DNA of 35,963 bases from a virus, in the IMG/VR virus record IMGVR_UViG_3300037423_002564; one strand, 5' to 3'. A program made the translations under genes and the position numbers. A model generated the notes under the pieces. The model ran no database searches, was not told the DNA's origin, and saw only the letters and a list, made by a program, of their open reading frames with translations. Positions within the stretch are counted from its first letter, which is position 1. Every line of letters starts with the position of its first letter. Below, one piece after another: positions 398 to 31,683 of this stretch.

Positions 398-414
398 GGT
401 AGTACCAAGCGACC
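398..414 (+). promoter_or_regulatory. 17-bp motif copy GGTAGTACCAAGCGACC
   Basis: Perfect GGT-N3-ACC-N5-ACC immediately after the HNH stop and before the RBS of the next gene. Confidence 0.7.
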
Positions 415-427
415 GAAGGACCCACGC

Positions 428-1057
428 ATGGCCGACACCTCCCACCAGGAACCGCTCACCCTCTCGCCGACGGCGAACATGCCGGCCCACACGCTGGAGC
501 CGGGCTTCTGGCGCAAGGCGCTGCACACCGACGAGGAGCTGTACGCCGCCCTGATGCAGCTCCTGGAGAAGAACGAGGCGCGCATGACGCTGCTTCAGCG
601 CGCCTTGGACCGGGAGCTGCCGGCGGACGACGGCTACCTGCTCTCGCGCGCCATCACCTGGCTCGACAGCCAGGTCACGTTCATGGGGCGCCTCTTGAGC
701 GACGCGGAGGGGCTTTTGGACCTGGCCGAAGCGCACTTCCTGCTGCCGGCGGGCCGCAGCGAGATCTGCACCGACGACGAGGGCAAGCTGATCCCCTCGG
801 ACGCCAAGGGCTGGAGCTTCGACCTCAACAAGGCCACCCCGGAGGAGACCAAGGCGTTCAAGCCGCGCTGGACCAGCCTCACCACCAACGACCGCGAGGT
901 CGACTGCGCCGCCAAGTGCGTGGCCTTCCGCCGGCTGCGCAACGAGTACCAGGCCGTCGCCAAGGGGTTGGAGAGCAAGCTTTACAAGGCATCGGGGCTG
1001 CTGGACGAACTCAAGGCACGGCATCGTGCCGCGGGCCTGGTGGAGCGACCCCGATGA
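428..1057 (+). CDS. hypothetical protein, helical/coiled-coil
   Basis: GAAGGA RBS, GC3-biased codons, protein-like composition; no family recognised. Confidence 0.75.
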   Translation: MADTSHQEPLTLSPTANMPAHTLEPGFWRKALHTDEELYAALMQLLEKNEARMTLLQRALDRELPADDGYLLSRAITWLDSQVTFMGRLLSDAEGLLDLAEAHFLLPAGRSEICTDDEGKLIPSDAKGWSFDLNKATPEETKAFKPRWTSLTTNDREVDCAAKCVAFRRLRNEYQAVAKGLESKLYKASGLLDELKARHRAAGLVERPR

Positions 1058-1074
1058 GGGCCCGGTCCCATCCT

Positions 1075-1080
1075 TACAAT
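1075..1080 (+). promoter_or_regulatory. putative -10 box (TACAAT) for the RNAP operon
   Basis: ccatcctTACAATatg in a short intergenic gap upstream of 1108. Confidence 0.5.
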
Positions 1081-1107
1081 ATGTGTAGGGATGCGAGAGG
1101 GGGCGTG

Positions 1108-1341
1108 ATGCAGACCTATTGCTACGTCATCAAGCCGGTGACGGACCGCGACGAGAAGGCCATCCGCAACGTGATCGTCGGCCAGCAGATCCATGCCAAG
1201 GTCGCGCGCCTCAAGGGCAAGGACGGCATGGCCTTCTTGGAGGTCGTGGTGCCGGACAAGAACGAGATGGACCGCATCATCAACCTCTCGGCCATGATCA
1301 GCGGCCGGCGTCTGGCATACACGGAGTGGAGGCCCCAATGA
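1108..1341 (+). CDS. small hypothetical protein (MQTYCYVIKP...)
   Basis: Real part of ORF 916..1341; GAGGGG RBS before ATG 1108; ATGA overlap with the RNAP gene. Confidence 0.7.
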   Translation: MQTYCYVIKPVTDRDEKAIRNVIVGQQIHAKVARLKGKDGMAFLEVVVPDKNEMDRIINLSAMISGRRLAYTEWRPQ

Positions 1342-3182
1342 TCACCACCGTCGGCCAGATGATGGTCCAAGACGCGCTCCCCGCGAGCGTGCGCACGAAC
1401 GCGGTGATCGACAAGGGTGGCCTCGGCCGGCTGCTCAAGCAGGTGGCCGACAAGGAGCCCAAGCGCTACGGCGAGATCGTCGGCAAGCTCAAGGACATCG
1501 GCAACTTCTCCGCCTTCATCACGGGCACGAGCTACTCGCTCGACGACCTGGCGCCGGAGACCGGCATGCGCGACCAGCTCTTCAAGAAGCACGGCCGCGA
1601 GCTGGAGGCCCTGCGCAAGGAGATCGCCAAGGACCCCAGCCGCGCCAACCACCCCGAGATGCTGAAGCGCAAGGCCGCGGTCTTCTCACGCATCGAGGAG
1701 GACATGAACGCCCACATGGGCGAGCTGCTCAAGACCCCCAACGGCCTGACCGGCTGGGTGGCCTCGGGCGCCAAGGGCGACAAGAGCATGCTGCGCCAGA
1801 TGGTGGGCATGACCGGCCTGAACGTCGACGTCGCCGGCCGCCTGGTGCCGGAAATTGCCCGCAACTCCTTCAGCGAGGGGCTCTCGCCCATCGATCACCT
1901 CGTGCATGCCAACGGCGCGCGCCGCGGCGTCGTCAACACCTACACCAGCGTGCGCGAGCCCGGTGCCTTCGCCAAGGAGCTGAACACCATCAGCGCGGAC
2001 ATGGTGATCACCCAGGCCGACTGCGGCAGCTCCGACGGCGTGGTGCTGCCGCCGGACCACCCCGACGCGCTCGACCGCTGCCTGGGCCAGGACGTGCCCG
2101 GCATCGCCCACAAGAATGACATCTGGACGCCCAGCCTGGCGGAGGCGGCGCGCAAGAAGCAGACCGGCAACCTGGTCTTCCGCTCGCCGCTGCACTGCCA
2201 CGCCCACGAGGGCGTGTGCGCCCGCTGCTTCGGGCTCAACGAGGAGGGCCGGCTGCCGCCCGTGGGCGAGCATGTGGGCCTGAAGGCGGCCCAGGCCATC
2301 ACGGAGCCCCTGACGCAGCTCGCGCTCAACACCAAGCATACGGGCGGCGTGATCGGGGCGGGCAAGAGCCCGTTCCAGCAGATCATGCAGATGATGCACG
2401 CGCCCAAGAACTTCACCGGCGCGGCCACCCTGGCGCGCGTGGGCGGCCCGGTCACGGCGATCGAGGAGGCGCCCGCGGGCGGCCACCAGGTCACGGTGGC
2501 GGGCGTGGTCCACTACGTGCCGCCCGACTTCGCGGTGGTGGCCCGCCGCGGCCAGATGCTGCGCCGCGGCGATGCCCTCTCCGAGGGCCAGCTCCACCCG
2601 GCCGAGGTGGTCGAGCACCGCGGCATGGACGAAGGCCGCCGACAGTTCGCCGCGGGCGTGCAGAAGCTCTACGCCGACGCTGGCATCCGCGGCCACGGCA
2701 AGATCTTCGAGACCATCGCGCGCGGCGTGCTCAACCTGGGCCAGGTGGTCCAGCCGGGCGCCCACGAGTTCGTGCCGGGCGAGGTGGTCCACTGGAACGC
2801 CGTGGCGCCCTTGATGAAGGAGCCGCTGGAGTCGGTGCCGCTCTGGAAGAGCGAGGGCCGCATCCTGGCCGACGACCACGGCCCCGCCCGCCACTACCAG
2901 GTCGTCACGCCGCGCCTGCTCAAGGACATGGAGGCCGCCGGCCACCAAGACGTGACCGTCTACCGCAAGAACGCCCTGGTGGTGCAGCCGGTGATGATGG
3001 GCACGGAGCGCGCGGCCCTGCACAAGGGCGACTGGATGGCGAACCTGGGCTTCCGCTTCCTGGGCAGCCGCTTCAAGGAGAACGCGGCCACCGCGGCCGT
3101 CACCAACATCCACGGCTGGAACCCCTTCCCCGCCTACGCCGCCGGCAGCGAGTTCGGCAAGGGGCCCGGGGGCCGCTTCTGA
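1338..3182 (+). CDS. rpoC: DNA-directed RNA polymerase beta' subunit, C-terminal half (phage-encoded)
   Basis: TTVGQ, SGAKG, NSFSEGL, bridge helix GARRGVVNT, DCGS plus RSPLHC..EGVCARCFG zinc site, trigger loop GEHVGLKAAQAITEPLTQLALNTKHTGG; no NADFDGD; GGAGG RBS before ATG 1338. Confidence 0.92.
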   Translation: MITTVGQMMVQDALPASVRTNAVIDKGGLGRLLKQVADKEPKRYGEIVGKLKDIGNFSAFITGTSYSLDDLAPETGMRDQLFKKHGRELEALRKEIAKDPSRANHPEMLKRKAAVFSRIEEDMNAHMGELLKTPNGLTGWVASGAKGDKSMLRQMVGMTGLNVDVAGRLVPEIARNSFSEGLSPIDHLVHANGARRGVVNTYTSVREPGAFAKELNTISADMVITQADCGSSDGVVLPPDHPDALDRCLGQDVPGIAHKNDIWTPSLAEAARKKQTGNLVFRSPLHCHAHEGVCARCFGLNEEGRLPPVGEHVGLKAAQAITEPLTQLALNTKHTGGVIGAGKSPFQQIMQMMHAPKNFTGAATLARVGGPVTAIEEAPAGGHQVTVAGVVHYVPPDFAVVARRGQMLRRGDALSEGQLHPAEVVEHRGMDEGRRQFAAGVQKLYADAGIRGHGKIFETIARGVLNLGQVVQPGAHEFVPGEVVHWNAVAPLMKEPLESVPLWKSEGRILADDHGPARHYQVVTPRLLKDMEAAGHQDVTVYRKNALVVQPVMMGTERAALHKGDWMANLGFRFLGSRFKENAATAAVTNIHGWNPFPAYAAGSEFGKGPGGRF

Positions 3183-3559
3183 TGAACGGCGTGCGGCTGG
3201 TCAAGGGCAACACGCGGCTCGTGCTCCTGTTCGACTCCTACGCCATCAAGGTGCCCCGCCCGGGCAACGAGGCGGACGGCCGCGAGGCCAACCGGCGCGA
3301 GGCGGCGCTCTGGAAGGCGCACCAGGACGAGCGGCTCTGCCCGGTGCTCTTCGCCGACGAGAAGGGTGCGATCCTGGTCATGCGCCGGGCGCAGAAGTAC
3401 TACGCCTACAACAAGAAGGACTTCATCGACCAGGTGTACTGGCGCAAGGTGTTCACGGACTTCCTGGCCTTCGCCAACGACATGCACCCGGGCAACTTCG
3501 GCTACCTGGATGGGCGCCTGGTGCTCCTGGACTACGGCACCATGCTGGTGGAGGGATAG
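3182..3559 (+). CDS. minimal protein-kinase-like protein (125 aa)
   Basis: GNTRLV, AIKVP, NRREA, DMHPGN and LLDYG correspond to kinase-like subdomains I, II, III, VIb and VII; TGATG coupling to the RNAP gene. Confidence 0.8.
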   Translation: MNGVRLVKGNTRLVLLFDSYAIKVPRPGNEADGREANRREAALWKAHQDERLCPVLFADEKGAILVMRRAQKYYAYNKKDFIDQVYWRKVFTDFLAFANDMHPGNFGYLDGRLVLLDYGTMLVEG

Positions 3560-6607: not shown

Positions 6608-6613
6608 ATTATA
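6608..6613 (-). promoter_or_regulatory. -10 box TATAAT upstream of holin
   Basis: ggggccTATAATaac on the minus strand, 48 nt upstream of the holin ATG. Confidence 0.7.
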
Positions 6614-7364: not shown

Positions 7365-8288
7365 CTACTTCTTGCGGGTCATGTCCCAGTCGACGTCGAT
7401 GTAGGGCCGGATCTCGGCGCTGTTCGCATCGAGTTCGCACGGGCGGGTGCGCTTGATCTTCAGGCGCACGATCAGGTTCGCGATGATGGTGGTGCCCGCG
7501 CCGAGATGGGCCAGCAGGTCCGCGCCCAGGGCGTGGTCCACCAGCGGGATGCCCTCGCCGTCCATCTGCGGCGTCGCGCCGTCCATCAGGATGGGGAGTT
7601 GCGGGTAGAGGTTCGCGCTGGCCCAGGTGCCGCCCGGGGGCATCTTGATGGGCTGGTGGTTCGTGCCGGCGAGCGTGATGCCCTGGTTGGCAAGCGTGAA
7701 ACCGCCCATGCGGCAGAAAGTGCTCTCGTCGGCCGCGTCCAGGTAGAAGCCGGTGTCCACCTCGATTTGCGTGAAGCGCGGCACGTTCTGCCATTCGGCA
7801 GCCACCGCGTTGAGCGAGAGGTCGGCGACGATGGGGTAGACGTGATAGCTCACCACCGGGCTGTCGTCGCCGGCCGCGCCGGTCGCTTCCAGCCAGGCGC
7901 ACCCGCGCGGCAGGGTCGCCAGCTTGGCGGCGCGATCGCCGGCCGCGAGGAAGGCGGTCACGTCGGCATCCGTGGGCAGCTCCATGGCGACGGAGCCCTG
8001 CGCGTACTCGATGGACTGCGGTCCCGCCGGCGGGTTCGCGGTCTTGAGCCACCCTTCGGCCGTCACGCCATAGTCGAGCTGCGGCTTGACGGTGTTGTGG
8101 AAGTGGTCCCAGTCGCTGCCCGCGTTCTCGTCGTAGTGGACGACGGCGACGTGCAGGGCACCGCCCAGCTCCAGCCGGACCTCCACGTCCTTGGGGCCTA
8201 GGGACATGTGCCGGACCTTCGGCAAGAGCCCCTCGGCCTGGCCGGCGATGGCGAGCAGCTCGCCGTAAGTGACCTTGATCGTGTGCAT
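7365..8288 (-). CDS. hypothetical protein, probably virion-associated
   Basis: AGGAG RBS; lies within the tail-fibre operon; no family recognised. Confidence 0.7.
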   Translation of the reverse strand: MHTIKVTYGELLAIAGQAEGLLPKVRHMSLGPKDVEVRLELGGALHVAVVHYDENAGSDWDHFHNTVKPQLDYGVTAEGWLKTANPPAGPQSIEYAQGSVAMELPTDADVTAFLAAGDRAAKLATLPRGCAWLEATGAAGDDSPVVSYHVYPIVADLSLNAVAAEWQNVPRFTQIEVDTGFYLDAADESTFCRMGGFTLANQGITLAGTNHQPIKMPPGGTWASANLYPQLPILMDGATPQMDGEGIPLVDHALGADLLAHLGAGTTIIANLIVRLKIKRTRPCELDANSAEIRPYIDVDWDMTRKK

Positions 8289-11187: not shown

Positions 11188-11216
11188 GAGGGGGCGGGGC
11201 GGCGCCCCACCCCCTC
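11188..11216. other. GC-rich hairpin without U-tract
   Basis: GAGGGGG-GGGGC / GCCCC-CCCCCTC inverted repeat. Confidence 0.55.
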
Positions 11217-11228: not shown

Positions 11229-11245
11229 GGTCGGTCGGTCCTACC
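11229..11245 (-). promoter_or_regulatory. 17-bp motif copy GGTAGGACCGACCGACC
   Basis: Perfect match on the minus strand directly after the stop at 11246. Confidence 0.7.
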
Positions 11246-13000
11246 CTACGCCGCGGTGGTCTTGAGCCAGCGGAGCGAGATCTTCATCCCGGCCTCCAGG
11301 GGCACCGTGGTGTCGAAGTGGATGCGCACGCGGTCGTTGGCGGGCTCGGTGAACACGCCCTCGTAGCCGTTGCCGGCCCCGTTGTACTCGGCCAGGGGAT
11401 CCTGCGGGTCGCCGTCCACCAAGACGGCCATCAGGTTGCGGCCGGGGATGTAGGTCCCCTTCGCGCCCGGGATGAGCACCTCGAAGTAGGCGACGTTGGC
11501 ACCGATCGCCGGCGCCGGGGTCGCCCCCGCGATGTCGCCCGCCTGGATGGTGTAGCGGTGGAAGCCGAACTCGATGGCGTCGATGCGGCGATCCAAGGCC
11601 ACGATGGCTTCCTGGCCGTTGGCGACCGGCGAGTTGTCCGGGTTGGTCAGGTTCGTACCGGTGGGGTCGAAGGTCAGGTCTTCCAGGGCGTGCGCCGCCG
11701 TCGACGCGATGTGCGTCGTCAGCAGGGTCTCCAGATCGATCACCTTCTGGTCCAGCTCCACCAACGGGCGGTGCGCCTCGTTGGGCAGCGCGCTGAAGCT
11801 GATCACGCCGCCAGCGGCCGTGGCCTTGCCCAGCTTCGTGAACTCGCCCGCGCCCGGGTAGGCCAGGCCGGTCTGCACCGCGCCCGTGTTGTCCACCCAG
11901 AAGAAGAGGCTGGTCCCGTCGGGGACGGCCACCGGCGCCACCGGGATGGCGAAGCGCTTGCCGGCGACGTAGGCGAAGCGGCCGGCAGCGGGCTGCGCGG
12001 TGTTGTCGCCGTTGTCGATCAGCGTGGCGGCCGTGCCCAGCACGCCGTTGGAGCGCAGGTCGTTGAAGTACTGCTCCAGGTTGCCCTGGGCAGCGCCCGA
12101 CGCCGCGGTGACGTTGGTCTGGAGCTGGTTCAGCGCATCCTTCAGGGTCGCGTTGGCGCCCAGGCCGCTCACCACCACGCCGTCGGCGACCTCGACGTCG
12201 ATGTCGATGGTGCTGTGGCGCTCCGCCCCGGGACCGGTGATGCCGCCCACGTGGTCGGCGATGCGCTGGATCACGCTGCGCGCCAGGGAGGCGGCGCCGT
12301 TGTTCGACAGCGTCACGCCCAGGTCGGCCGCGAGCTGCTGGATGTTGTTGTTCTCGTTGATGTCCACCGCGCCGGGGCTGCTGATGATCACGCGGCCCTG
12401 GTCCTCCAGGAGCTGGCTGGAGCCGGGCACCCACTGGCGGAACCAGGCATAGGCCGTGGTCGCGCCGGGCAGGGTGTACGGGGCCTCCACGCCGCCGGGG
12501 GCGTGGTAGAAGGTCAGCGTCCACGCGCCGTTGGGGCCGCCGGCGTTGGAGAGGCGCGCGTAGACCTCGTTGCCGTTGGCGTCCTTGATGGGGTCGGTGC
12601 CGTCGGGCTGGCCGGCGGGGCCGGGGGCACGCAGCATGACCTTGTTGCCCGCGTCGGCGCCCGCGCCCACGTAGGTGGCGGCACCCAGGTTGGTCCAGGT
12701 GCGGCTGGGGGCGTCGAAGGTCGGCGCGGCGGCGGACACGGCGGTGCCGGCCAGCTCGGCCGAGACGTCCATCGTGCCGGCGGCCGGCAGCAGGATCGCC
12801 GCGGCCGTGATCTGCACCGGGATCACGCGCTTGGTGGTGTCGAGCAGCGCCTGCGCGAAGCCGACCTGGGTCTTCTCGAAGCCCAGGGTGGCATCCTCGA
12901 CGTTCTGGTTCTTCACGGACTGGAGCCCCAGGAGGCGGTTGATGACCGTGCCGTCCTTGAGCGTCAGGTACGCGACCTTGGTGTTCAACAGGTTCGCCAT
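11246..13000 (-). CDS. virion structural protein (fibre/whisker-like)
   Basis: GAGGAG RBS; A/G/T-rich with short coiled segments (TLKDALNQLQTNV, QEAIVALDRRID); operon context. Confidence 0.65.
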   Translation of the reverse strand: MANLLNTKVAYLTLKDGTVINRLLGLQSVKNQNVEDATLGFEKTQVGFAQALLDTTKRVIPVQITAAAILLPAAGTMDVSAELAGTAVSAAAPTFDAPSRTWTNLGAATYVGAGADAGNKVMLRAPGPAGQPDGTDPIKDANGNEVYARLSNAGGPNGAWTLTFYHAPGGVEAPYTLPGATTAYAWFRQWVPGSSQLLEDQGRVIISSPGAVDINENNNIQQLAADLGVTLSNNGAASLARSVIQRIADHVGGITGPGAERHSTIDIDVEVADGVVVSGLGANATLKDALNQLQTNVTAASGAAQGNLEQYFNDLRSNGVLGTAATLIDNGDNTAQPAAGRFAYVAGKRFAIPVAPVAVPDGTSLFFWVDNTGAVQTGLAYPGAGEFTKLGKATAAGGVISFSALPNEAHRPLVELDQKVIDLETLLTTHIASTAAHALEDLTFDPTGTNLTNPDNSPVANGQEAIVALDRRIDAIEFGFHRYTIQAGDIAGATPAPAIGANVAYFEVLIPGAKGTYIPGRNLMAVLVDGDPQDPLAEYNGAGNGYEGVFTEPANDRVRIHFDTTVPLEAGMKISLRWLKTTAA

Positions 13001-13015
13001 GTTCCTTCTCCTCTG

Positions 13016-13321
13016 TTACGTGTACACATAACGCACCTGGATCAGCCAGCCGGTGGGCAGGTCGATCGCGAGCGTGAACAGCCCTTGGGTGGGATCCGAC
13101 TCCAGGTAGGCCGGCGGGGTCACGAGGCTGTAGCCTTCTTCACCATCCGGCGCCGCCGAGAGGCGGACTTCGAGGTTGCCCGGCTGGTAGTTGCCCGCGA
13201 GCACCTGGGCGAGCTGACGCCCGCCGATGAACGAGGGAACCTCCCAATCGCTGTGGCGGTGGTTCACCGGCCCCGGGTTCGGGGGCGTGGAGCCCTGGGC
13301 ACCGATCTCGTAGACCGGCAT
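13016..13321 (-). CDS. small hypothetical virion protein (MPVYEIG...)
   Basis: Real part of ORF 13016..13579; TGATG coupling at 13321; GGGGAG RBS. Confidence 0.7.
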   Translation of the reverse strand: MPVYEIGAQGSTPPNPGPVNHRHSDWEVPSFIGGRQLAQVLAGNYQPGNLEVRLSAAPDGEEGYSLVTPPAYLESDPTQGLFTLAIDLPTGWLIQVRYVYT

Positions 13322-13764
13322 CAGTGCTTCTCCCCGCGGATCTGGACCTCGACCCTCCCGCCGCCGTGGGCCGTCACGACCAACTGGTCGCCAGGCGTCA
13401 TCGGCAACGTGTCGGTCACGGTCAAGCCCGTGGACACGGCGTGGAACCGCTCGATCAGGGGGAACCGTTGACCGCCAAGCAGCAGGTGGATCCCGAAGTC
13501 CTTGGGGTCGGTGTTGGGCACCCAGTTGCCGTTGCCGTCGTCCTTCAAGAACTTCAGCGCGACAACTCGCGTGCTCCACGGCCCCGTGAAGTCGGTGACG
13601 AGATCCAGATCCGCGGTCCCCAGGTCATGGCTTACACCGTCCGCCAGCATCTGCGGCGCTACGGGGCGGGACATGACGCGCAGGACGCGCTGTTGGCCGG
13701 TCTCGTCCTCGGGAAGAGCCTGGACAACGGAGAACAGGATCTCGGCTTCGCTCGGAACGGTCAT
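13321..13764 (-). CDS. hypothetical protein (MTVPSEAE...)
   Basis: GGGAG RBS before ATG 13764; first gene after the TATAAT box at 13797-13802. Confidence 0.7.
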   Translation of the reverse strand: MTVPSEAEILFSVVQALPEDETGQQRVLRVMSRPVAPQMLADGVSHDLGTADLDLVTDFTGPWSTRVVALKFLKDDGNGNWVPNTDPKDFGIHLLLGGQRFPLIERFHAVSTGLTVTDTLPMTPGDQLVVTAHGGGRVEVQIRGEKH

Positions 13765-13796: not shown

Positions 13797-13802
13797 ATTA
13801 TA
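13797..13802 (-). promoter_or_regulatory. -10 box TATAAT
   Basis: ctccaTATAATgtt on the minus strand upstream of the fibre operon. Confidence 0.7.
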
Positions 13803-14278: not shown

Positions 14279-14295
14279 GGTAGTACGGTCTGACC
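14279..14295 (-). promoter_or_regulatory. 17-bp motif copy GGTCAGACCGTACTACC
   Basis: Perfect match on the minus strand between a TATACT box (14307-14312) and the RBS. Confidence 0.7.
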
Positions 14296-14333
14296 AACGA
14301 GCCACCAGTATACCCCAGCCGTCCGCGCAAGAC

Positions 14334-16222: not shown

Positions 16223-16228
16223 ATTATA
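16223..16228 (-). promoter_or_regulatory. -10 box TATAAT
   Basis: gtccaTATAATcaa, 19 nt upstream of the fibre ATG. Confidence 0.7.
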
Positions 16229-18783: not shown

Positions 18784-18834
18784 TATAATGTGTTGGGTAG
18801 GTTGGTCCTACCGTTCTACCACATGCCTATTATA
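18784..18834. promoter_or_regulatory. face-to-face promoters enclosing a double copy of the 17-bp motif
   Basis: TATAAT + at 18784-18789, TATAAT - at 18829-18834; GGT-AGGTT-GGT-CCT-ACC-GTTCT-ACC at 18796-18820. Confidence 0.75.
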
Positions 18835-20555: not shown

Positions 20556-21151
20556 TACATTTGATGGTCGCCATCGCCTGCATGATGGCCTGGTTCGCCC
20601 CTCCCGCGGCCTCCGCATCCGTGGTTTGGATGCCCGTGATCACGCACGGCGGGCGGCCGAGCGCCACGCCCACGCCGACCCCCCTGCCGGACCTCTTGCC
20701 CCCGCCCGGGGTCGTCGACGCCTACTGCTACGCCGTCCACGACGGGGATACCATAACGTGTAAGACCCCGACCGGCATGCAGAAGGTGCGGCTCTTGGGC
20801 ATCGACGCGCCGGAGCTGAAGCAACTCCCGTGGGGCCCCAAGGCCCAGGCCGCGCTCCAGGCGCTGGTCTACCTGCACAACGTGCGGCTCGACACCGCCG
20901 GCAACGCGCACCCGCTCGACCTCTACGGCCGCACGCTGGCCTACGTCTACGTGGACGGGACCTGGGTGCAGGAGAAGCTCGTGACCCAGGGCCTCGCCAT
21001 GGCGAAGACCTACGGCAAGGCGCCCCGGGACTACGCGCAGCTCGACGTGCTGATGCGCCAGGCCAAGAACCTGCATGTGGGCATCTGGAGCGACCCCGCC
21101 TTCGTGCTGCCCTCGGACTACCGCAAGCAGCACGGCATCGGCAAGCACTAG
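20549..21151 (+). CDS. thermonuclease (SNase-like) with signal peptide
   Basis: VHDGDTI, VRLLGIDAPE, DLYGRTLAYVY, GLA, GIWS; hydrophobic N-terminus and Pro/Thr linker. Confidence 0.9.
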   Translation: MLIHLMVAIACMMAWFAPPAASASVVWMPVITHGGRPSATPTPTPLPDLLPPPGVVDAYCYAVHDGDTITCKTPTGMQKVRLLGIDAPELKQLPWGPKAQAALQALVYLHNVRLDTAGNAHPLDLYGRTLAYVYVDGTWVQEKLVTQGLAMAKTYGKAPRDYAQLDVLMRQAKNLHVGIWSDPAFVLPSDYRKQHGIGKH

Positions 21152-22737
21152 ATGTAGAGCTTGCGCTCGCGCAAGAGGTACAACAGGATGTTCGCGTAGA
21201 CGGCCGTGTGCGTGAAGTCGTCCGCAATGTCGGGCGGGTGATCGTACTTGAACTTGTCGTTGAAGTTCCGGTCGTCGAGCGGCTCCATGAAGATGCACAA
21301 GATGTCCTTGGCGTAGTGCTGGAAGATGCTCCAGTCGGGGAACCAGTAGCGCTTCTGCTTCATGAGCAGGAACGACTCGGACATGGCCTGGGTGCGGTTG
21401 ACCTTGTAGACGTGCGAGTCCTTGTCGTACTTGGCGATCTCGCTCTGCTCCGACACGTACATGAACTTGTGGACGCGCTGGCCCACCTTCTGCTCCAGGC
21501 TCACGCCCTGCACGATGCCGGCGCCCCAGTCCGCCCCGATGAGCTGCACGTTCCAGACCTTGATCCAGTGCGCGATCTGGTCGATCTGCTTGAGCAGGTC
21601 GTTGTGCATGAAGCGGTAGCAGAACAGCAGCTTGATGCGGTTCTCCGCCACGCCCCAGATGCTCAAGATGGTGAAGGACTTGCGCGCCGTGAGGCCCCAG
21701 TCGATGGTCGCCATGATGAGCGGGAAGCGCTCCTTCTGCGGGTTGTAGTAGTCGGCGAACTCGTAACCCGTCTCGCAGCAGGCGCGCAGGTCGTCCTCGC
21801 TCAAGAACTCGATGCCGGAGCCCGCGGCCTGGCCCATGACCTCGTTGGCGAAGCGGATCTGGTCCATGTTGTGCCGCTTGTGGACGATCTCGGACCACTT
21901 CTCCGGGTCCTCGGTGTGCAGGGGCAGGATGATCTGCGGGATGCGGAAGCCCAGCCACTTCTTGTCCACGGCGTTCATCGCCATCCAGTAGCCGTTGCGC
22001 ACGTCGCAGACGGACTTGCACTTCTTGCAGGTGAAGCCGTCGCGCTGGATGTTGTCGACGTCGGGCAGGTTGTGGTGGCCGCTGGGGCAGACCACGATCC
22101 ACTCGCAGGCCGTGGAGTCGCGGAAAGTGGCTTCGAGGACGTTGCCCACGGTCTTGGCGGTGCCCGTGCGCATGATCGCCTGGCGGTCGCTGCTCTGGCC
22201 GGAGAGCGACTCCTCGACGATGTCGAGGTCCTCGCCGTTCATGTCCTGGACCTCGTCCTCGATGATGCGGTTGCCGGACAGGCCGCGCAAGCTCTCGATC
22301 TGCGAGAGGGCGCCGAAGAACATGGTCGACCCGTTGGCGAAGCTGCGCTCGAAGGTGTTGCGCTTGCAGCTCGCGTTCATGAACCACTTGCGGATGATCT
22401 CGCTCTCCGAGATCACCTTGGCGACGCGCTGGTTGCTGAAGCGGCGCATCTGCATGACCGAGGGCAATACCGCGATCGCATCCCAGTGGCTCTCGCCGAT
22501 GCACTCGGCCGTGATGAAGTTGGCGGCCGTGGTGGACTTCGCGACCTGGCGCCCCGAGCAGATGACGAGGTGCTTGACCGTGGCGCGATAGATGTCGTGG
22601 AACGGGATGTAGTCTTCGAGCGAGAACTCCCGGCCCTTGAGCGTGAAGCAGCTCTCCGTGATCGTCTTGCGGTCGCTCCAGATGACCTGGCGACCGCGGC
22701 TGTCGACGGTGACGAGCGGCCCTTGTGGCTGGACCAA
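21148..22737 (-). CDS. terL: terminase large subunit
   Basis: SGRQVAKST (Walker A-like), IIEDEVQD (Walker B), RTGTAKT, zinc-binding CPSGHH..CKKC, nuclease IDWG and DDFTH; GGGAGG RBS then TTG at 22737. Confidence 0.9.
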   Translation of the reverse strand: MVQPQGPLVTVDSRGRQVIWSDRKTITESCFTLKGREFSLEDYIPFHDIYRATVKHLVICSGRQVAKSTTAANFITAECIGESHWDAIAVLPSVMQMRRFSNQRVAKVISESEIIRKWFMNASCKRNTFERSFANGSTMFFGALSQIESLRGLSGNRIIEDEVQDMNGEDLDIVEESLSGQSSDRQAIMRTGTAKTVGNVLEATFRDSTACEWIVVCPSGHHNLPDVDNIQRDGFTCKKCKSVCDVRNGYWMAMNAVDKKWLGFRIPQIILPLHTEDPEKWSEIVHKRHNMDQIRFANEVMGQAAGSGIEFLSEDDLRACCETGYEFADYYNPQKERFPLIMATIDWGLTARKSFTILSIWGVAENRIKLLFCYRFMHNDLLKQIDQIAHWIKVWNVQLIGADWGAGIVQGVSLEQKVGQRVHKFMYVSEQSEIAKYDKDSHVYKVNRTQAMSESFLLMKQKRYWFPDWSIFQHYAKDILCIFMEPLDDRNFNDKFKYDHPPDIADDFTHTAVYANILLYLLRERKLYI

Positions 22738-22760: not shown

Positions 22761-22785
22761 GGTAGGTCGGTACTACCAATCTACC
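22761..22785. promoter_or_regulatory. double (dyad) copy of the 17-bp motif between divergent genes
   Basis: GGT-AGGTC-GGT-ACT-ACC-AATCT-ACC gives one perfect copy on each strand. Confidence 0.75.
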
Positions 22786-23220: not shown

Positions 23221-23249
23221 TATAATAGGCGTGGTAGTACCGACCTTCC
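23221..23249 (+). promoter_or_regulatory. -10 box TATAAT plus 17-bp motif copy at the head-module start
   Basis: atccaTATAATagg (23221-23226) then GGTAGTACCGACCTTCC (23233-23249, one mismatch). Confidence 0.75.
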
Positions 23250-24673: not shown

Positions 24674-24679
24674 TATAAT
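24674..24679 (+). promoter_or_regulatory. -10 box TATAAT
   Basis: gacccTATAATagg upstream of 24722. Confidence 0.7.
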
Positions 24680-24721: not shown

Positions 24722-25537
24722 ATGACCACTCCATTCGACGTCTGGATGGACTCCATGAACAAGCAGGCTGTGGACGCGCTCGTCCCCGGTCAGGTGGGCA
24801 CCGGCGTGCCCAACCCGGGCACCATCCCCTCGGGCGCTCCCGGTTCGCTGGATTCCGACCCCGCCGGCGCGAGCAACACGGACCTGGCGCTCCAGCGCTT
24901 CGCCCAGGGCTCCGTGCCCGTCCTGTCCGCCACCGATGCGGACGGCGGCATGGGCTACAGCCACCCCGCCCCCGGCACCAGCTCCAACATCCAGATGTTC
25001 GCGGACGTCAAGGCCGCCGCCATCATCCAGGAAGGCCAGGCGTTCGCCGACCAGGTCTACCTGGAGATGAAGCAGGCCAACGTGGCGAACATCGCCCAGA
25101 AGGTCCGCGGCGTCGCCCAGGACGTCAGCGCTGCCGCTCACCGGATGACCGGTGGTCGCGTCGGCGTCGGCCAGGCCCCGGTCGCCGAGCCCCAGGGCGC
25201 GATGGCCGCCCTGACCCAGGGCGTCAAGGACAAGGCCCAGCAGGCCGCCGCCACCGCCCAGGCGGGCGTGCAGCGCGTCGGTCAGCAGGCCCAGGAGGCC
25301 GTCGGCAAGGCGCAGCAGTACGTCCAGCAGGGCGCGCAGAACGCGGCTCGCCGTGGCGCCGAGGAAGCGGCCAACCACCCCTACATGGCGGCCGGCATCG
25401 GCGGCGCGGCCGTGGCGGGCGCGGGTGCGGCCGGCTACGCGGCGGGCTCCAACAAGCAGGCGTCCGAGGACCGCATCAACCAGGCGGCGCTCGCGGGCCA
25501 GGCTTACGCGATGCGCCTGCTCCAGGGCCAGGCGTAG
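24722..25537 (+). CDS. Ala/Gln/Gly-rich protein with repeated KQA (putative internal head protein)
   Basis: AGGAGG RBS; three KQA motifs; hydrophobic AAGIGGAAVAGAGAAGYAAG. Confidence 0.7.
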   Translation: MTTPFDVWMDSMNKQAVDALVPGQVGTGVPNPGTIPSGAPGSLDSDPAGASNTDLALQRFAQGSVPVLSATDADGGMGYSHPAPGTSSNIQMFADVKAAAIIQEGQAFADQVYLEMKQANVANIAQKVRGVAQDVSAAAHRMTGGRVGVGQAPVAEPQGAMAALTQGVKDKAQQAAATAQAGVQRVGQQAQEAVGKAQQYVQQGAQNAARRGAEEAANHPYMAAGIGGAAVAGAGAAGYAAGSNKQASEDRINQAALAGQAYAMRLLQGQA

Positions 25538-25553
25538 GCCGGACCAACCGACC
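25537..25553 (+). promoter_or_regulatory. 17-bp motif copy GGCCGGACCAACCGACC (one mismatch)
   Basis: Starts at the stop codon of the upstream gene. Confidence 0.55.
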
Positions 25554-25608
25554 GACGTACCGGGTGGCGGGTGAGGGAACTCGCCCGCCACCTTTGCTAG
25601 GACACGCG

Positions 25609-27620: not shown

Positions 27621-27901
27621 TGCTCGACGCGTACCAGGTCTACATGGACCGCGTGAAGCGCGCCATGGAGCAGGAAGAACCTAAAAACGAAGCTTCCACG
27701 TTGAAGCACGTTCGCAACAACGTGATCTACGGCCTCATGAGCAGCCGCGCCGGCGGCCCCGTGAGCCTGGTCGGCTCCAGCGTCGGCGGCGCCTTGGATG
27801 GCGTCCTGATGAAGCCGGTCATCGACGCCGGCATCGACGCGGCCGGCAAGGGTGTTCGGTGGGCCTACGGGCTCAAAAACGAGCCCAGCGCATCCCTATA
27901 A
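27620..27901 (+). CDS. small Gly-rich protein (MLDAYQVYMDRVKRA...)
   Basis: Real part of ORF 26576..27901; TGATG coupling to the protease. Confidence 0.65.
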   Translation: MLDAYQVYMDRVKRAMEQEEPKNEASTLKHVRNNVIYGLMSSRAGGPVSLVGSSVGGALDGVLMKPVIDAGIDAAGKGVRWAYGLKNEPSASL

Positions 27902-27902
27902 T
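27897..27902 (+). promoter_or_regulatory. -10 box TATAAT
   Basis: atcccTATAATacc overlapping the upstream stop, 22 nt before ATG 27924. Confidence 0.7.
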
Positions 27903-28778: not shown

Positions 28779-28790
28779 GAGGGAGCCTCC

Positions 28791-29036
28791 ATGATCGGTC
28801 AGGACCCCGTCCGCGAGCGCATGCTCAAGGAGGCGGCGACCGAGCTGTCGGAGGCGGCCGATCTGCTCGCCGAGCACGAGAAGGCCGCCTCTAACCAGGC
28901 TCCCACCGCCGACCCCATCGAAACCGCCAAGCAGGCGTCGCTCGCGCGCACCGCGGCGAACCTCATCTACGTCGACCACGTCAACGCACTCTTGGCGGCC
29001 AAGACCGCGAGCCAGGAGCCGGCAGCCGCCGGTTAG
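28791..29036 (+). CDS. small K-x-A protein
   Basis: GGAGGGAG RBS; all 4 lysines are in K-x-A. Confidence 0.7.
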   Translation: MIGQDPVRERMLKEAATELSEAADLLAEHEKAASNQAPTADPIETAKQASLARTAANLIYVDHVNALLAAKTASQEPAAAG

Positions 29037-29038
29037 TC

Positions 29039-29962
29039 ATGGCCGCCCCGCTGACCTCCGAGCTGCACAGCCTCCTGATCAGGCCCTCCAACGGGAGCCT
29101 GATCTTGGGGGCTGCGCACCATGCGCTGTACCGGCCGGCCAACGCCCTCGCCCACAAGGTGACGGGCCACGCGCTGCCGACGGCCTTGGACCCGGGGGAG
29201 TGGGGCGCGGCAGCCGCGCGCGCCGGCGAGAAGGTGGACTACCACCTCGCCTTGGGCGGCGCGCAGCGTGCGGAGACCATCCAGCTCGACAACGATCACC
29301 TCAAGCACATCGGCCAACACCTGGATACGATGGCGGCCACCGACCCGGGTAAGGCCCGGGCGCTGGAGACCGACCTCAATTCCGTGGTGGCGGATCATTA
29401 TAATAGGGGGGAGACCATCCGGGGGTTGGTGGACAAGGCTCACGCCGACCAGAACTTCCGGGCCACCCTTCACGAAGTTGCCGTCCCCAGCGCCACTGGC
29501 GAAGTCGGACGCACCGCCAAAACCCTCGCCACCGATGCAGCGGGCCTCTACGGCGCCGCCGCCATCACGGACAAAGTCCGCCAGGCGATGGACCCGCAAG
29601 CCAAGGAGAAGCAGAGTTCGATGAGCAAGCTGAACGTGGCGATCGAGAAGATCCAGAAGGCCGCCTCGATCCTCGACCAGATCCCCGCGCGTGACGCCGC
29701 CTTCGCCAAGGCCGCGGCCCTCGCCGAGGAGGAGGTCATCGGTCAGCACGAGGTCGAGAAGTTCGCGGGGCTCTTCGAGCGCAACCCGCAGGACGCCGAG
29801 ACCGTCGTCGCCGCCCTGCGCCGTGGCGAGGACGAGGCCACCAAGTTGGCGTCGTTCGGCGAGGTGGTGAAGAGCGAGCCCCAGAACGGCGCCGGTGCGA
29901 ACCGTGGCCGCTTCGAGGCTCTGTGCCTGGAAAATAACACCCAGCCCAAGCGCTCCTGGTAG
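29039..29962 (+). CDS. head-module protein, possibly with a nested in-frame scaffold-like product from ATG 29621
   Basis: Open frame; internal TATAAT at 29399-29404 and AAGGAG before MSKLNVAIEK. Confidence 0.6.
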   Translation: MAAPLTSELHSLLIRPSNGSLILGAAHHALYRPANALAHKVTGHALPTALDPGEWGAAAARAGEKVDYHLALGGAQRAETIQLDNDHLKHIGQHLDTMAATDPGKARALETDLNSVVADHYNRGETIRGLVDKAHADQNFRATLHEVAVPSATGEVGRTAKTLATDAAGLYGAAAITDKVRQAMDPQAKEKQSSMSKLNVAIEKIQKAASILDQIPARDAAFAKAAALAEEEVIGQHEVEKFAGLFERNPQDAETVVAALRRGEDEATKLASFGEVVKSEPQNGAGANRGRFEALCLENNTQPKRSW

Positions 29963-29974
29963 TACCAATCTACC
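29958..29974 (+). promoter_or_regulatory. 17-bp motif copy GGTAGTACCAATCTACC
   Basis: Perfect match overlapping the stop at 29962. Confidence 0.7.
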
Positions 29975-30010
29975 GAAAGTCCGTCCGTCCCCTATGAGGA
30001 GGAGATTCCC

Positions 30011-30559
30011 ATGACCATCTCGTTCGGCGTTCCCGGCTCCCCCCGCAAGACCTTCGACGACAAGAAGTTCGACTTGCAGGGTGGCGTCTACTCCAAGTGG
30101 CCCTGCCCGCTCCAGTCCGGCCTGCCTGCCGGCACCGTCAAGGACGGCCAGTTCCTCGCTCCAGACGGCCTGGGCGCCTACGTGCCCGCGCCCGACGCGG
30201 ACCGCGCCCTGTTCCTGATGTTCACCGCGAACAACGAGGTGATCGTCAAGGAAGTCACCGCCGCCGACGAGTTCCCCGGCGAGGAGCGCACCAACACCCC
30301 CACCGGCCTCCAGGGCAAGATCAACGGCGTCTGGTCCGTGGATCAGCTCTTCCTGGGCGCCACCGGTGGCGGCGCGGTCACGCTCGCCGACTACGACGCC
30401 AACCAGGCGCTCACGGTCAAGGCCGGCAAGCTCTGCCCCGCCAACTTCGGCACCAACGCCGGCGAGAAGGTGATCGGCTACGTCGACACCCCCAACACCT
30501 GGGCCGGCGGCAGCCTCGGCTCCACCGCGGGTGCGATCGCCGCTTCCATCGACATCTAG
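30011..30559 (+). CDS. putative capsid decoration/cement protein
   Basis: GAGGAGG RBS; beta-rich 182 aa immediately upstream of MCP; ALTVKAGKL..VIGYV pattern. Confidence 0.6.
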   Translation: MTISFGVPGSPRKTFDDKKFDLQGGVYSKWPCPLQSGLPAGTVKDGQFLAPDGLGAYVPAPDADRALFLMFTANNEVIVKEVTAADEFPGEERTNTPTGLQGKINGVWSVDQLFLGATGGGAVTLADYDANQALTVKAGKLCPANFGTNAGEKVIGYVDTPNTWAGGSLGSTAGAIAASIDI

Positions 30560-30567
30560 GCCCTTCA

Positions 30568-30636
30568 CCCGCCGCGAGACGTAGTATCTACGCCCCGCGG
30601 CGGGGATAAGCCTCCGAATATTCGGGGAAAGTCCCC
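30568..30636 (+). other. structured intergenic leader upstream of MCP
   Basis: CCCGCCGCG/CGCGGCGGG stem with inner CGTAG/CTACG, then CCGAATATTCGG palindrome overlapping GGGGA..TCCCC. Confidence 0.55.
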
Positions 30637-30690
30637 GCAAGCCACGCCACACCACGTTCTACGCCCACAACCTTTCAGGAGGGTTTCACC

Positions 30691-31638
30691 ATGGAAGACA
30701 ACCAGGTCATGTCCGTCGAGGAAGCGCGCCTCGTCAACGCCGGATTCCTCGCGGCGGCCCAGGAGGGTGGCGCGAAGCTGAAGAAGGTCGCCAACACGGT
30801 GAACGAGGACATCATCCTCACGATTCTCCGTGAGGATGGCATCTCGCGTCGCATCATGCCATACAAGCCCATCTCCTCGGCGGAACTGTCCACGGACAAG
30901 GACTTCCCCGATGTGCCCGTGAAGTTCGTCCCGGTCGAGGTCCCGGTCAACGAGTACCTCGCCTTCGCGGTCGACTTCATGCAGCCCTCGAAGGACATGT
31001 GGTTCCGCTCGAAGGTGGCGCCGGTCTACTTCAAGCCGATCAAGACCAAGACGGTCCGGCTGACCGAGAGCCAGTTGCTGGCCAACAACTACCCCATCAA
31101 GAGCTACATCGAGAGCATCTTGAAGAACGACATCCTGGCCGTCGAGGACATCTCCTTGATCGGCGCCATCGAGCGCTGCGTCACGAAGAACATCCCCAAC
31201 GGCAACGCGCTGGCCGCCGCGGCCCCGCTGATCAAGGATCACGTCGCCGACATCAACAAGCAGATGGTGCGCAACCGTCTGTCTACCGTGATGATCATCC
31301 TGAACGAGATCACGTACCAGGACATCATCAAGTGGAACTCGTCCGAGATCGGCAGCCTGGTGATGGAAGGCATCATCGAGCACGGCCCCAAGGGCGAGCA
31401 GCTCAAGTACAAGAGCTGGCTGGGCTACAAGTGGGTGATGACGAACAACGCGGACGTGGTGCCCGAAGGCACCCTGTACGCGTTGCCCGCGCAGCGCTAC
31501 CTGGGCTCCAGCTACATGCTGGCGGACGCCGAGCAGTGGATCGAGTTCCGCGACGGCATCCTCTCCACCAACACCCGCGAGATCGTGGGCCGCAACCTGT
31601 TCAACCACCGCGGTCCCGTCAAGATGGTGCTGTCCTAG
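30691..31638 (+). CDS. major capsid protein (probable HK97 fold)
   Basis: 315 aa; AGGAGG RBS; LREDGISRRIM, ILAVEDISLI, WLGYKWV..NADVVPEGTLY; position after protease, scaffold and decoration and before neck genes. Confidence 0.8.
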   Translation: MEDNQVMSVEEARLVNAGFLAAAQEGGAKLKKVANTVNEDIILTILREDGISRRIMPYKPISSAELSTDKDFPDVPVKFVPVEVPVNEYLAFAVDFMQPSKDMWFRSKVAPVYFKPIKTKTVRLTESQLLANNYPIKSYIESILKNDILAVEDISLIGAIERCVTKNIPNGNALAAAAPLIKDHVADINKQMVRNRLSTVMIILNEITYQDIIKWNSSEIGSLVMEGIIEHGPKGEQLKYKSWLGYKWVMTNNADVVPEGTLYALPAQRYLGSSYMLADAEQWIEFRDGILSTNTREIVGRNLFNHRGPVKMVLS

Positions 31639-31639
31639 C

Positions 31640-31683
31640 GGTCTGACCGAAGGACCGTCCCGCCGCCTACGGGTGGCGGGACG
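31640..31683 (+). promoter_or_regulatory. 17-bp motif copy followed by a UNCG hairpin
   Basis: GGTCTGACCGAAGGACC (31640-31656) then CGTCCCGCCGCC-tacg-GGTGGCGGGACG (31656-31683); no U-tract. Confidence 0.7.

What the first reader, a model, noticed from the sequence alone, without database searches (positions are those of the whole stretch)
398..31656. Strand-oriented 17-bp intergenic motif GGT-N3-ACC-N5-ACC, 11 copies, forming dyads at divergent genes
Seen: perfect copies at 398-414(+), 11229-11245(-), 14279-14295(-), 18796-18812(-), 18804-18820(+), 22761-22777(-), 22769-22785(+), 29958-29974(+) and 31640-31656(+), plus one-mismatch copies at 23233-23249(+) and 25537-25553(+). Every copy is intergenic or overlaps a stop codon, lies about 10-60 nt upstream of a start codon, and points in the direction of transcription. 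At both divergent gene pairs two copies share the GGTnnnACC core, giving a 25-bp dyad GGT-N5-GGT-N3-ACC-N5-ACC. A rough estimate for 9 fixed bases at about 70% GC is under one chance hit per window. Inference: a phage-wide control element. It could be a promoter for the phage RNAP (the terL divergent gap has the dyad but no TATAAT), an operator with 8-bp periodicity, or an RNA-level site (it sits downstream of the -10 box wherever both occur). I do not recognise it as a known site.
Basis: partly seen in the sequence, partly recalled or inferred. Interest (0 to 1): 0.88.

Follow-up and report, generated by a model that had tools for sequence, protein, structure and literature searches.

The report
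Oriented operator arrays in jumbo phage
A 204-kb uncultured high-GC phage that carries its own RNA polymerase marks its promoters and many gene gaps with one short palindrome followed by repeats spaced exactly 8 bp apart that point along transcription. This is most likely a docking array for a still unidentified DNA-binding regulator, a variation on the "stoperator" networks already known from mycobacteriophages.

Summary
All 9 perfect and both one-mismatch copies sit where stated (0.31 perfect copies expected by chance). All are intergenic or overlap a stop codon, and all point with transcription.

The motif is part of a genome-wide system:
- The window lies in a 203,733-bp virus record with 38 GGT-M-N-K-ACC cores, 28 of them in the 6% of non-coding DNA (p=2e-26).
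- Extra KACC units follow at exactly +8 and +16 bp, always on the downstream side (14 of 14 asymmetric sites in co-directional context).
- Arrays start 0-17 nt after most -10 boxes (30 nt at one), or lie inside a -35/-10 spacer, just upstream of a -10, or directly after stop codons.
- A complete relative (median protein identity 41%) keeps the palindromic core at orthologous gaps but mostly lacks the extensions.

The core matches the published GntR/FadR-subfamily operator consensus (TGGT-N3-ACCA). The phage has no detectable GntR gene.

My best reading (about 50%) is an operator and roadblock array for a dimeric DNA-binding protein. An RNA-level site (about 20%) and a phage-RNAP promoter (about 10%) are not excluded.

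This scan already reported the same system from another window of this genome (e1-5351589).

The parts
398..422 (+). Array inside the RNAP operon, directly after the stop codon of gene 23-397. Core GGTAGTACC plus units AAGCGACC and GAAGGACC. The start codon at 428 follows.
   Evidence: A perfect core sits at the orthologous gap of relative G001 (19021).
11229..11245 (-). Array directly after the stop codon of gene 11246-13000. Core GGTAGGACC plus GACCGACC, followed by a degenerate unit and a G+C hairpin.
11190..11214 (-). G+C-rich hairpin 14 nt downstream of the 11229 array.
   Evidence: read from the sequence
14279..14295 (-). Array 11 nt downstream of a TATACT -10-like box (14307-14312, - strand) and 14 nt upstream of a GTG start preceded by AAGGAG.
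18796..18820 (.). 25-bp dyad in the divergent gap 18774/18849. It lies between two face-to-face TATAAT boxes (18784-18789 + and 18829-18834 -), so both transcripts cross it.
   Evidence: The core is kept at the syntenic gap of G001 (41738), and a degenerate core (GGTCCTACT) sits in the corresponding divergent gap of L013.
22761..22785 (.). 25-bp dyad in the divergent gap between terL (start 22737, -) and the head-module operon (ATG 22803, +). No TATAAT here; only weaker -10-like words.
   Evidence: One-mismatch cores sit at the same gap in L013 and in L014/G001.
23233..23249 (+). One-mismatch copy (GGTAGTACC GACCTTCC) 6 nt downstream of TATAAT 23221-23226.
25537..25561 (+). One-mismatch array overlapping the TAG stop of gene 24746-25537. 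Three ACC units at an 8-bp phase, abutting the hairpin at 25562-25592, which is followed by TTTGC.
29958..29974 (+). Array whose GGTAG contains the TAG stop of gene 29039-29962. The next gene starts at 30011.
31640..31656 (+). Array 1 nt after the stop of the putative major head protein gene (30691-31638), abutting the hairpin at 31657-31682.
   Evidence: G001 has the same layout after its ortholog: stop, core, hairpin (55788).

Best explanation
The motif is the binding array of one sequence-specific double-stranded-DNA-binding protein that acts on the whole phage genome.

Proposed mechanism (inferred):
- A dimer docks on the palindromic core (T)TGGT-MNK-ACCA(A).
- Further copies add cooperatively on weaker C-K-ACC units spaced exactly 8 bp apart. 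These units are laid out only on the downstream side.
- At promoters the array covers the start site, or the -35/-10 spacer, or the region just upstream of the -10, and so blocks initiation.
- In the short gaps directly after stop codons it acts as an orientation-dependent roadblock that lowers read-through into the next gene, as Cluster A mycobacteriophage stoperators do.

Shown here: the anatomy, the statistics, the placement and the conservation.

The core has the sequence that GntR/FadR-type winged-helix dimers read, and no such gene is detectable in the phage.
- HU-like 190608-190925 (G000 coordinates)
- AbrB-like 191244-191549
- winged-helix protein 183217-184374
- XRE 33600-33962
- tandem HTH_17 protein, about 7590-8249
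For: 1. Non-random and non-coding. The window has 9 copies against 0.31 expected. Genome-wide, 28 of 38 cores lie in 6.1% non-coding DNA, p=2e-26. Ten control palindromes of the same composition have 0-5 intergenic copies each.

2. Two-fold symmetric core with independent halves. Both the A/T and C/G combinations and the mixed forms (GGTAGGACC, GGTCATACC) occur. This fits a dimer on duplex DNA, not a base-paired stem.

3. Rigid lattice. A downstream ACC sits at +8 in 17 cores and at +16 in 8, with none at 7, 9 or 10.

4. Operator-like, variable placement relative to promoter words:
- 0-17 nt after TATAAT-type boxes at most sites and 30 nt at one (116400), so most arrays cover the expected start site
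- inside the spacer of TTGACA-N18-TAGTAT (G000 124417)
- ending 1-2 nt before TATAAT (G000 130021 and 44516)
- three core-like elements around TTGACT-N17-TACGAT next to the XRE gene

5. Seven of the eight divergent junctions carry an array; the eighth (20522/20705) has only array-like sites in nearby sequence called as coding.

6. Conservation. In the complete relative G001 (terL 58% identical, 105 shared proteins, median identity 41%), 18 of 35 cores are intergenic. Perfect cores sit at 4 of 13 testable orthologous gaps (plus 2 more by synteny), and one-mismatch cores at 4 more. The rough chance of a perfect core is below 0.01 per gap.

7. Precedents in print:
- FadR-subfamily consensus GTM-N-KAC, written TGGTN3ACCA; LldR site TGGTCTGACCA (PMC4494728, PMC2602784)
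- three NanR dimers bind phased GGTATA direct repeats cooperatively (10.1101/2020.04.22.056440)
- L5-type stoperators are oriented with transcription and lose function when inverted (PMC9283540)
Against: - No binding protein has been identified and no binding has been shown.
- The phage has no GntR domain in any frame and no ribbon-helix-helix hit.
- A symmetric dimer does not by itself explain why the extensions always point downstream (14 of 14). Every copy is also transcribed in sense orientation, which an RNA-level site would explain more simply.
- Three window copies abut hairpins. That layout is typical of RNA-binding termination control.
- An 8-bp repeat puts successive units on different faces of B-DNA, which many helix-turn-helix oligomers could not follow.
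- No transcript data could be obtained.
Confidence: 0.5

Rival explanations
1. The motif is an RNA-level site. The sense-strand RNA (GGU-MNK-ACC followed by ACC every 8 nt) in 5' leaders and between cistrons is bound by a protein that controls translation of the next gene, termination at the adjacent hairpin, or processing.
For: - All asymmetric copies are co-oriented with transcription (14 of 14).
- Many arrays end 0-4 nt before the Shine-Dalgarno sequence.
- Three window arrays abut hairpins, and the same stop-core-hairpin layout follows the head protein gene in G001.
- At divergent gaps the face-to-face -10 boxes mean both transcripts carry the motif.
Against: - There is no consistent or stable fold: the mean z-score of 20 sites is -0.72 and the predicted structures differ from site to site.
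- There is no covariation. GGT and ACC never vary, the M and K positions vary independently, and the extension unit does not track the left half of the core.
- No Rfam family matches.
- Exact 8-nt spacing with a two-fold symmetric core is a property of duplex DNA.
- In G001 most sites are bare palindromes with no strand information.
- Placement inside a -35/-10 spacer and just upstream of -10 boxes has no RNA rationale.
Confidence: 0.2
2. The motif is a promoter or initiation element for the phage-encoded RNA polymerase, or for one of the two phage sigma-like factors. This would give each marked gene its own transcript, like the T7 promoters that sit in tiny gaps.
For: - The phage encodes a multisubunit RNAP (Rpb1 domains 4 and 5 in window gene 1326-3182) and two sigma-like proteins.
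- The copies are oriented, sit just upstream of genes, and often follow a stop codon with no TATAAT nearby.
- The terL gap has the dyad but no TATAAT.
Against: - The distance to -10-like boxes varies from 0 to 30 nt, and the motif sometimes lies upstream of them or inside the spacer.
- The core is palindromic even at one-way sites.
- Three copies are followed at once by hairpins, which a new transcript would run straight into.
- The conserved promoter-like word of this phage group is CC(C)TATAATA, which precedes structural genes in three relatives that largely lack the motif.
- Several arrays leave 5 nt or fewer before the Shine-Dalgarno sequence.
Confidence: 0.1
3. The motif marks architectural or other DNA transactions. 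Examples are loading sites for the phage HU-like protein, or replication, packaging or nucleoid organisation, with no direct role in gene control.
For: The phage HU/IHF-like gene carries the core in its own promoter spacer in both G000 and G001. The sites are dispersed over the whole genome.
Against: The strict link with promoters, stop codons and the direction of transcription, and the absence of the motif from the three convergent gaps, are not expected for architecture alone.
Confidence: 0.07

Closest known systems
Operators and stoperators of Cluster A mycobacteriophages (L5 gp71, TipsytheTRex repressor; PMC9283540)
   Same: One short site occurs in more than 20 copies across the genome, both in promoters and in short intergenic gaps. 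Its orientation tracks the direction of transcription.
   Different: Stoperators are asymmetric 13-mers bound by a monomer with two domains. Here the core is a two-fold symmetric palindrome with 8-bp-phased extra units. The phage is a 204-kb genome with its own RNAP and sigma-like factors. No repressor has been identified and immunity is not shown.
GntR/FadR-subfamily operators (FadR TGGTN3ACCA; C. glutamicum LldR TGGTCTGACCA; PMC4494728, PMC2602784)
   Same: The core sequence is identical in form (GT-M-N-K-AC with TGGT/ACCA boxes and 3 nt between GT and AC). Some phage sites are letter-for-letter TGGTCTGACCA. The sites overlap or follow promoters.
   Different: No GntR-domain gene is detectable in the phage and the host is unknown. 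Ordinary FadR-type regulons have a few sites and no oriented 8-bp arrays.
E. coli NanR on the (GGTATA)3 operator (10.1101/2020.04.22.056440; direct repeats TGGTATAW in PMC4494728)
   Same: This GntR-type repressor reads short GGTA-type direct repeats in a fixed close phase, with several dimers binding cooperatively. It resembles the GGTAGATT GGTAGATT GGTCAGACC type of array seen here.
   Different: NanR has one operator, made of direct repeats only with no palindromic core, in a host sugar regulon.
AbrB-type regulators on bipartite TGGNA motifs (PMC3738160)
   Same: TGG-containing pentamers are used in direct and inverted orientation, and long sites hold several motifs. An AbrB/MazE-fold protein is encoded by the phage and conserved in G001.
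   Different: AbrB motifs are separated by 4-5 AT-rich bp (period 9-10). Here the spacer is 3 bp (period 8) and the sequence is far more strictly conserved.
MetJ met-boxes (8-bp tandem) and omega-repressor heptads of pSM19035; phiC31 conserved inverted repeats (from my own knowledge, not checked in papers here)
   Same: Repressor dimers polymerise on units repeated every 7-8 bp in direct or inverted orientation. In phiC31 a repressor site recurs in intergenic regions.
   Different: Those readers are ribbon-helix-helix proteins, or the phiC31 c-gene products. No RHH domain was detected in this phage.

Membership tests
Cluster A-type operator/stoperator network | One short site in more than 20 copies dispersed over the phage genome, in promoters and in short intergenic gaps | tested here: met
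   There are 38 cores, 28 of them non-coding. They lie at 7 of the 8 divergent junctions and directly after stop codons.
Cluster A-type operator/stoperator network | Site orientation correlates with the direction of transcription | tested here: met
   14 of 14 asymmetric sites in co-directional context extend downstream. ACC occurs at +8 in 17 cores, against GGT at -8 in 5.
Cluster A-type operator/stoperator network | Asymmetric 13-mer read by a monomeric two-domain gp71-type repressor | tested here: not met
   The site has a palindromic core plus 8-bp repeats. A gp71 homolog was not searched for specifically. The only XRE-type HTH protein is absent from G001.
Cluster A-type operator/stoperator network | Bound repressor stops initiation and elongation; confers immunity in lysogens | not testable with these tools
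   There is no culture and no transcript data. A tyrosine recombinase gene is present, but lysogeny is not shown.
GntR/FadR-subfamily operator | Palindrome GT-M-N-K-AC with TGGT/ACCA boxes and 3 nt between GT and AC | tested here: met
   The core is GGT[AC]N[GT]ACC with T/A flanks in both G000 and G001. The consensus is taken from PMC4494728 and PMC2602784.
GntR/FadR-subfamily operator | A GntR-family winged-helix regulator that reads it | tested here: not met
   PF00392 has no match in six frames of the phage at E<=10. A host regulator cannot be tested because the host is unknown.
Promoter of a phage RNAP or sigma factor | Fixed geometry relative to the transcription start and other promoter elements | tested here: not met
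   The motif lies 0-30 nt after -10-like boxes, inside a spacer, or upstream of the -10. Hairpins follow three copies directly. Transcription starts themselves were not measurable.
Structured cis-regulatory RNA | Known family match, or a stable conserved fold with covariation | tested here: not met
   No Rfam match at gathering score. The mean fold z-score is -0.72 with inconsistent structures and no compensatory changes.
AbrB-type TGGNA arrays | TGGNA pentamers 4-5 bp apart in any orientation, and an AbrB-fold reader | tested here: inconclusive
   A reader candidate is present and conserved, and the mix of orientations is similar. The spacing is 3 bp, however, not 4-5 (PMC3738160).

The most novel reading that the evidence does not exclude
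The arrays are read by a protein of no recognised class, or by a hijacked host GntR/FadR-type metabolite sensor. That protein nucleates on the palindrome and polymerises one way along the 8-bp lattice towards the gene. This would form a directional clamp that both shuts promoters and stops elongating polymerase (host or phage-encoded) at some 35 places. The effect would be to tie the gene programme of a jumbo phage with its own RNAP to one factor, or to a host metabolic signal.
Probability: 0.15. Interest if true: 0.75.

Novelty: new variant of a known kind. Interest (0 to 1): 0.55.

Why it matters
Genome-wide oriented repressor sites are well documented only for Cluster A mycobacteriophages. 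Here the same logic appears in an unrelated, uncultured 204-kb phage lineage that carries its own multisubunit RNA polymerase and two sigma-like factors, and the site is built differently (palindrome plus a rigid 8-bp lattice).

The core has stayed the same while the shared proteins diverged to about 41% identity, so a conserved reader must exist. Finding it would show how such phages time or silence whole operons. In practical terms, the motif gives a ready map of regulated transcription-unit boundaries for annotating this phage group.

Tried and rejected
- Close relatives in GenBank phages: none by megablast, and terL reaches only 28% identity to Bacillus phages.
- IMG/VR scan with the exact 17-mer: only a 98.8%-identical contig (L011), which is uninformative, plus chance hits in low-GC contigs.
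- terL peptide scan of IMG/VR with the single protein: nothing. The scan with an alignment gave G001 and G002.
- G002 (75 kb, 57% GC, terL 54% identical): no enrichment of the core (4 copies against 4 for the control) and no obvious repeated intergenic word. The motif is therefore limited to a subgroup.
- Reader identification:
  - The XRE protein has no homolog beyond itself and is absent from G001.
  - The MarR-like 385-aa protein has only 8 relatives, no PDB match, and looks more like a phage-group-specific winged-helix protein.
  - The tandem HTH_17 protein has no relatives in IMG/VR.
  - No GntR, RHH or TetR domain was found.
- Host guess through the PhoH-like gene in genome contigs: nothing. 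ARAGORN found no tRNA or tmRNA.
- PHROGs and Pfam gave almost no function for the genes downstream of the window copies.
- An iterated position-weight-matrix scan drifted because the motif is periodic and palindromic. I used exact core counts instead.
- RNA hairpin reading: rejected as a structure.
Full report
**Observation**

Dinucleotide-preserving shuffles give 0.31 on average and never more than 3. The two one-mismatch copies at 23233 and 25537 are also there.

I called genes by codon usage and read the flanks directly. Every copy is intergenic or overlaps a stop codon. Every copy lies 13-63 nt before a start codon and has the orientation of the gene that follows. Both divergent gaps (18774/18849 and terL/22803) hold the 25-bp dyad.

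**Where the window lies**

The window is bases 79088-115050 of a 203,733-bp IMG/VR virus record with terminal repeats and 67.6% G+C. GenBank phages hold no close relative.

Window gene 1326-3182 carries RNA polymerase Rpb1 domains 4 and 5. Gene 21148-22737 is a GpA-type large terminase. Gene 30691-31638 weakly matches a major head protein. Most other genes have no family.

**Anatomy, genome-wide**

The record has 22 perfect 17-mers, about 19 of them in the 6% of DNA that is non-coding.

The conserved heart of the motif is the palindrome GGT[AC]N[GT]ACC, usually flanked by T(T) and A(A).
- There are 38 copies, 28 of them non-coding, binomial p=2e-26.
- Ten control palindromes of the same composition have 0-5 intergenic copies each.
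- The two half-sites vary independently. GGTAGTACC, GGTCNGACC and the mixed form GGTAGGACC all occur.

Further units with consensus R-A-N-C-K-ACC follow in a rigid phase.
- ACC occurs at +8 in 17 cores and at +16 in 8.
- ACC never occurs at +7, +9 or +10.
- The mirror-image GGT at -8 occurs only five times: the three symmetric dyads and two arrays at divergent junctions. It never occurs at -16.

In co-directional gene context all 14 asymmetric arrays extend downstream. Seven of the eight divergent junctions of the genome carry an array; the eighth (20522/20705) has only array-like sites in nearby sequence called as coding. None of the three convergent gaps does.

**Relation to promoters, stop codons and hairpins**

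The other strongly enriched intergenic word is CC(C)TATAATA. There are 24 TATAAT hexamers, about 20 of them intergenic, often 6-7 nt before a Shine-Dalgarno sequence.

Arrays sit in several different geometries relative to promoter words:
- They begin 0-17 nt after a -10-like box at most sites and 30 nt after it at one (116400). In the window these are 18784 (+), 18829 (-), 23221 (+) and TATACT at 14307 (-). Most arrays therefore cover the expected start site.
- At divergent gaps the two -10 boxes face each other across the dyad.
- At G000 124417 the core lies in the spacer of TTGACA-N18-TAGTAT.
- At G000 130021 and 44516 the array ends 1-2 nt before TATAAT.
- Next to the XRE gene, TTGACT-N17-TACGAT is followed and overlapped by three core-like elements.

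In co-directional gaps the core abuts or contains the upstream stop codon (TAA-GGTAG, TAG-GGTAG, or TAG inside GGTAG). The last unit often ends 0-4 nt before AGGAGG. Three window arrays (11229, 25537, 31640) run into G+C hairpins.

**Conservation**

Relatives with terL 58-64% identical (L013, L014, L015) keep the TATAATA word everywhere. They show only degenerate cores, at the two divergent gaps.

The complete relative G001 gave the clearest test. It is 208,264 bp and 63.9% G+C, with terL 58% identical. It shares 105 proteins with G000 at a median identity of 41%.
- It has 35 cores, 18 of them in its 7.7% of non-coding DNA, mostly as TGGTCSGACCA.
- Of 13 G000 sites whose flanking genes have adjacent orthologs in G001, four have a perfect core in the orthologous gap. 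These are the RNAP-operon gap (window 398), G000 118498, 135363 and 190945.
- Four more have a one-mismatch core, including the terL gap.
- By synteny, the window dyad at 18796 and the site after the head protein gene (31640) are also matched, the latter again followed by a hairpin.
- A rough per-position probability of about 1e-4 makes a chance perfect core in a 60-100-bp gap unlikely (below 0.01).
- The 8-bp extensions are rare in G001.

G002 (57% G+C, terL 54% identical) shows no enrichment.

**What it most likely is**

A two-fold symmetric, invariant core points to a dimeric protein on duplex DNA. So do the independently varying halves, the exact 8-bp lattice, the variable but always promoter-overlapping placement, and the conservation across deep divergence. 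That protein would repress initiation.

The stop-codon-abutting, strictly oriented copies then look like the stoperators of Cluster A mycobacteriophages. Those sites lie in short intergenic spaces, track the direction of transcription, and fail when inverted (PMC9283540).

The core also has a published match. The FadR subfamily of GntR regulators reads GTM-N-KAC within TGGT/ACCA boxes, with 3 nt between GT and AC (PMC4494728). FadR reads TGGTN3ACCA, and Corynebacterium LldR binds TGGTCTGACCA best (PMC2602784). NanR, of the same family, loads three dimers cooperatively on closely phased GGTATA direct repeats. This gives a precedent for the array grammar.

**Who reads it**

The phage has no GntR domain in any frame, and no RHH or TetR domain. 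Its detectable DNA-binding proteins are listed below (with conservation).

| Protein (G000 coordinates) | Found in G001? | Link to the motif |
|---|---|---|
| XRE protein, 120 aa, 33600-33962 | no | three core-like elements around the promoter next to it |
| Tandem HTH_17 protein, about 7590-8249 | no | gene lies directly behind the strongest array |
| MarR-like winged-helix protein, 385 aa, 183217 | yes, 22-24% identical | core 160 nt upstream of the gene in G000; a core also lies upstream in G001 |
| AbrB/MazE-like protein, 191244 | yes, 42% identical | array lies upstream of the gene in both genomes |
| HU/IHF-like protein, 190608 | yes, 35% identical | apparently leaderless gene with the core in its promoter spacer in both genomes |
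| Two sigma-like proteins, 67723 and 116888 | yes, 42-44% identical | both genes lie in operons that start with a TATAAT box plus an array |

AbrB is known to read TGGNA pentamers in direct and inverted orientation, but 4-5 bp apart rather than 3 (PMC3738160).

A conserved phage protein or a host GntR/FadR-type factor would fit the conserved core. The two G000-only proteins could relate to the G000-specific extensions, but that rests on two genomes only.

**Rivals**

An RNA-level site remains possible. All copies are transcribed in sense, many abut the ribosome-binding site, and three abut hairpins. Against it:
- no stable or shared fold (mean z -0.72)
- no covariation
- no Rfam match
- G001 sites are bare palindromes

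A promoter for the phage RNAP is disfavoured. Its geometry relative to -10 boxes varies, the core is palindromic at one-way sites, hairpins follow some copies, and TATAATA is the group-wide promoter-like word. A purely architectural role does not explain the link to transcription direction.

**Status and novelty**

This scan reported the same system earlier from another window of this genome and reached the same stoperator-like reading (e1-5351589). I re-derived it independently. I add the test in a complete distant relative, the GntR/FadR consensus match with no GntR gene in the phage, the candidate list, and the hairpin and spacer placements.

It is a new variant of a known kind.

Noticed in passing
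window 18784-18789(+), 18829-18834(-), 23221-23226(+), 24674-24679(+), 27897-27902(+), 6608-6613(-), 13797-13802(-), 16223-16228(-): The second conserved intergenic word is CC(C)TATAATA(GG). There are 24 TATAAT hexamers in the genome, about 20 of them intergenic, often 6-7 nt before the Shine-Dalgarno sequence. It is the top intergenic word in G001 too and is present before structural genes in L013, L014 and L015. It is probably the main promoter -10 element of this phage group. About half of these boxes have no array.
   Followed up: partly
window 18784-18834; G000 116325-116405, 195230-195243; L013 13373-13443: At divergent gene pairs the two -10 boxes face each other across the dyad. Each leader therefore contains the complement of the other promoter, and the two transcripts overlap by about 30-70 nt. 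The layout is conserved in relatives.
   Followed up: partly
L016 about 7590-8249 (-): My simple caller missed a gene for a protein with two to three tandem HTH_17 (excisionase/MerR-like) domains. It lies directly behind the strongest array (core plus AATCTACC AATCTAC, then AAGGAGG). It is absent from G001. A tyrosine recombinase gene lies at 12780-13619 (-), so a lysogeny-type module is conceivable.
   Followed up: partly
L028 1462-1824 (+) and 1826-1890: The XRE-family gene (120 aa) is an orphan in the 5.8-billion-protein search. It is followed by a canonical TTGACT-N17-TACGAT promoter with one core-like element in its spacer and two cores just after the -10.
   Followed up: partly
G000 190608-190953; G001 146048-146404 (L039): The phage HU/IHF-like gene appears leaderless, with GATAAT 6 nt before the ATG. 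The core lies 5-7 nt upstream of that box in both genomes. An AbrB/MazE-like gene with its own TTGACC-N18-TAAGAT promoter diverges from it.
   Followed up: partly
L015 9940-9975: In this relative the terL gap carries a different 8-bp tandem repeat, GAACATGC GAACATGC, where G000 has the dyad. This may be a changed specificity at the same place.
   Followed up: no
P0012 (779 aa terL homolog); L015 3791-6337: Some relatives carry intein or homing-endonuclease signatures. These are PF14890 in a terL homolog and Hint plus LAGLIDADG (weak precomputed hits) in an 848-aa head-module gene.
   Followed up: no
G000 67723-68364 and 116888-117871: Two sigma-70-like proteins are encoded, one with regions 3 and 4 and one with region 2. 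Both lie in operons that start with a TATAAT box plus an array, and both are conserved in G001 (42-44% identity).
   Followed up: partly
G001 (L032-L042): The everted word ACC-MNK-GGT is also unusually intergenic in G001 (6 of 13). This may reflect adjacent cores 16 bp apart, as at 162452/162468.
   Followed up: no
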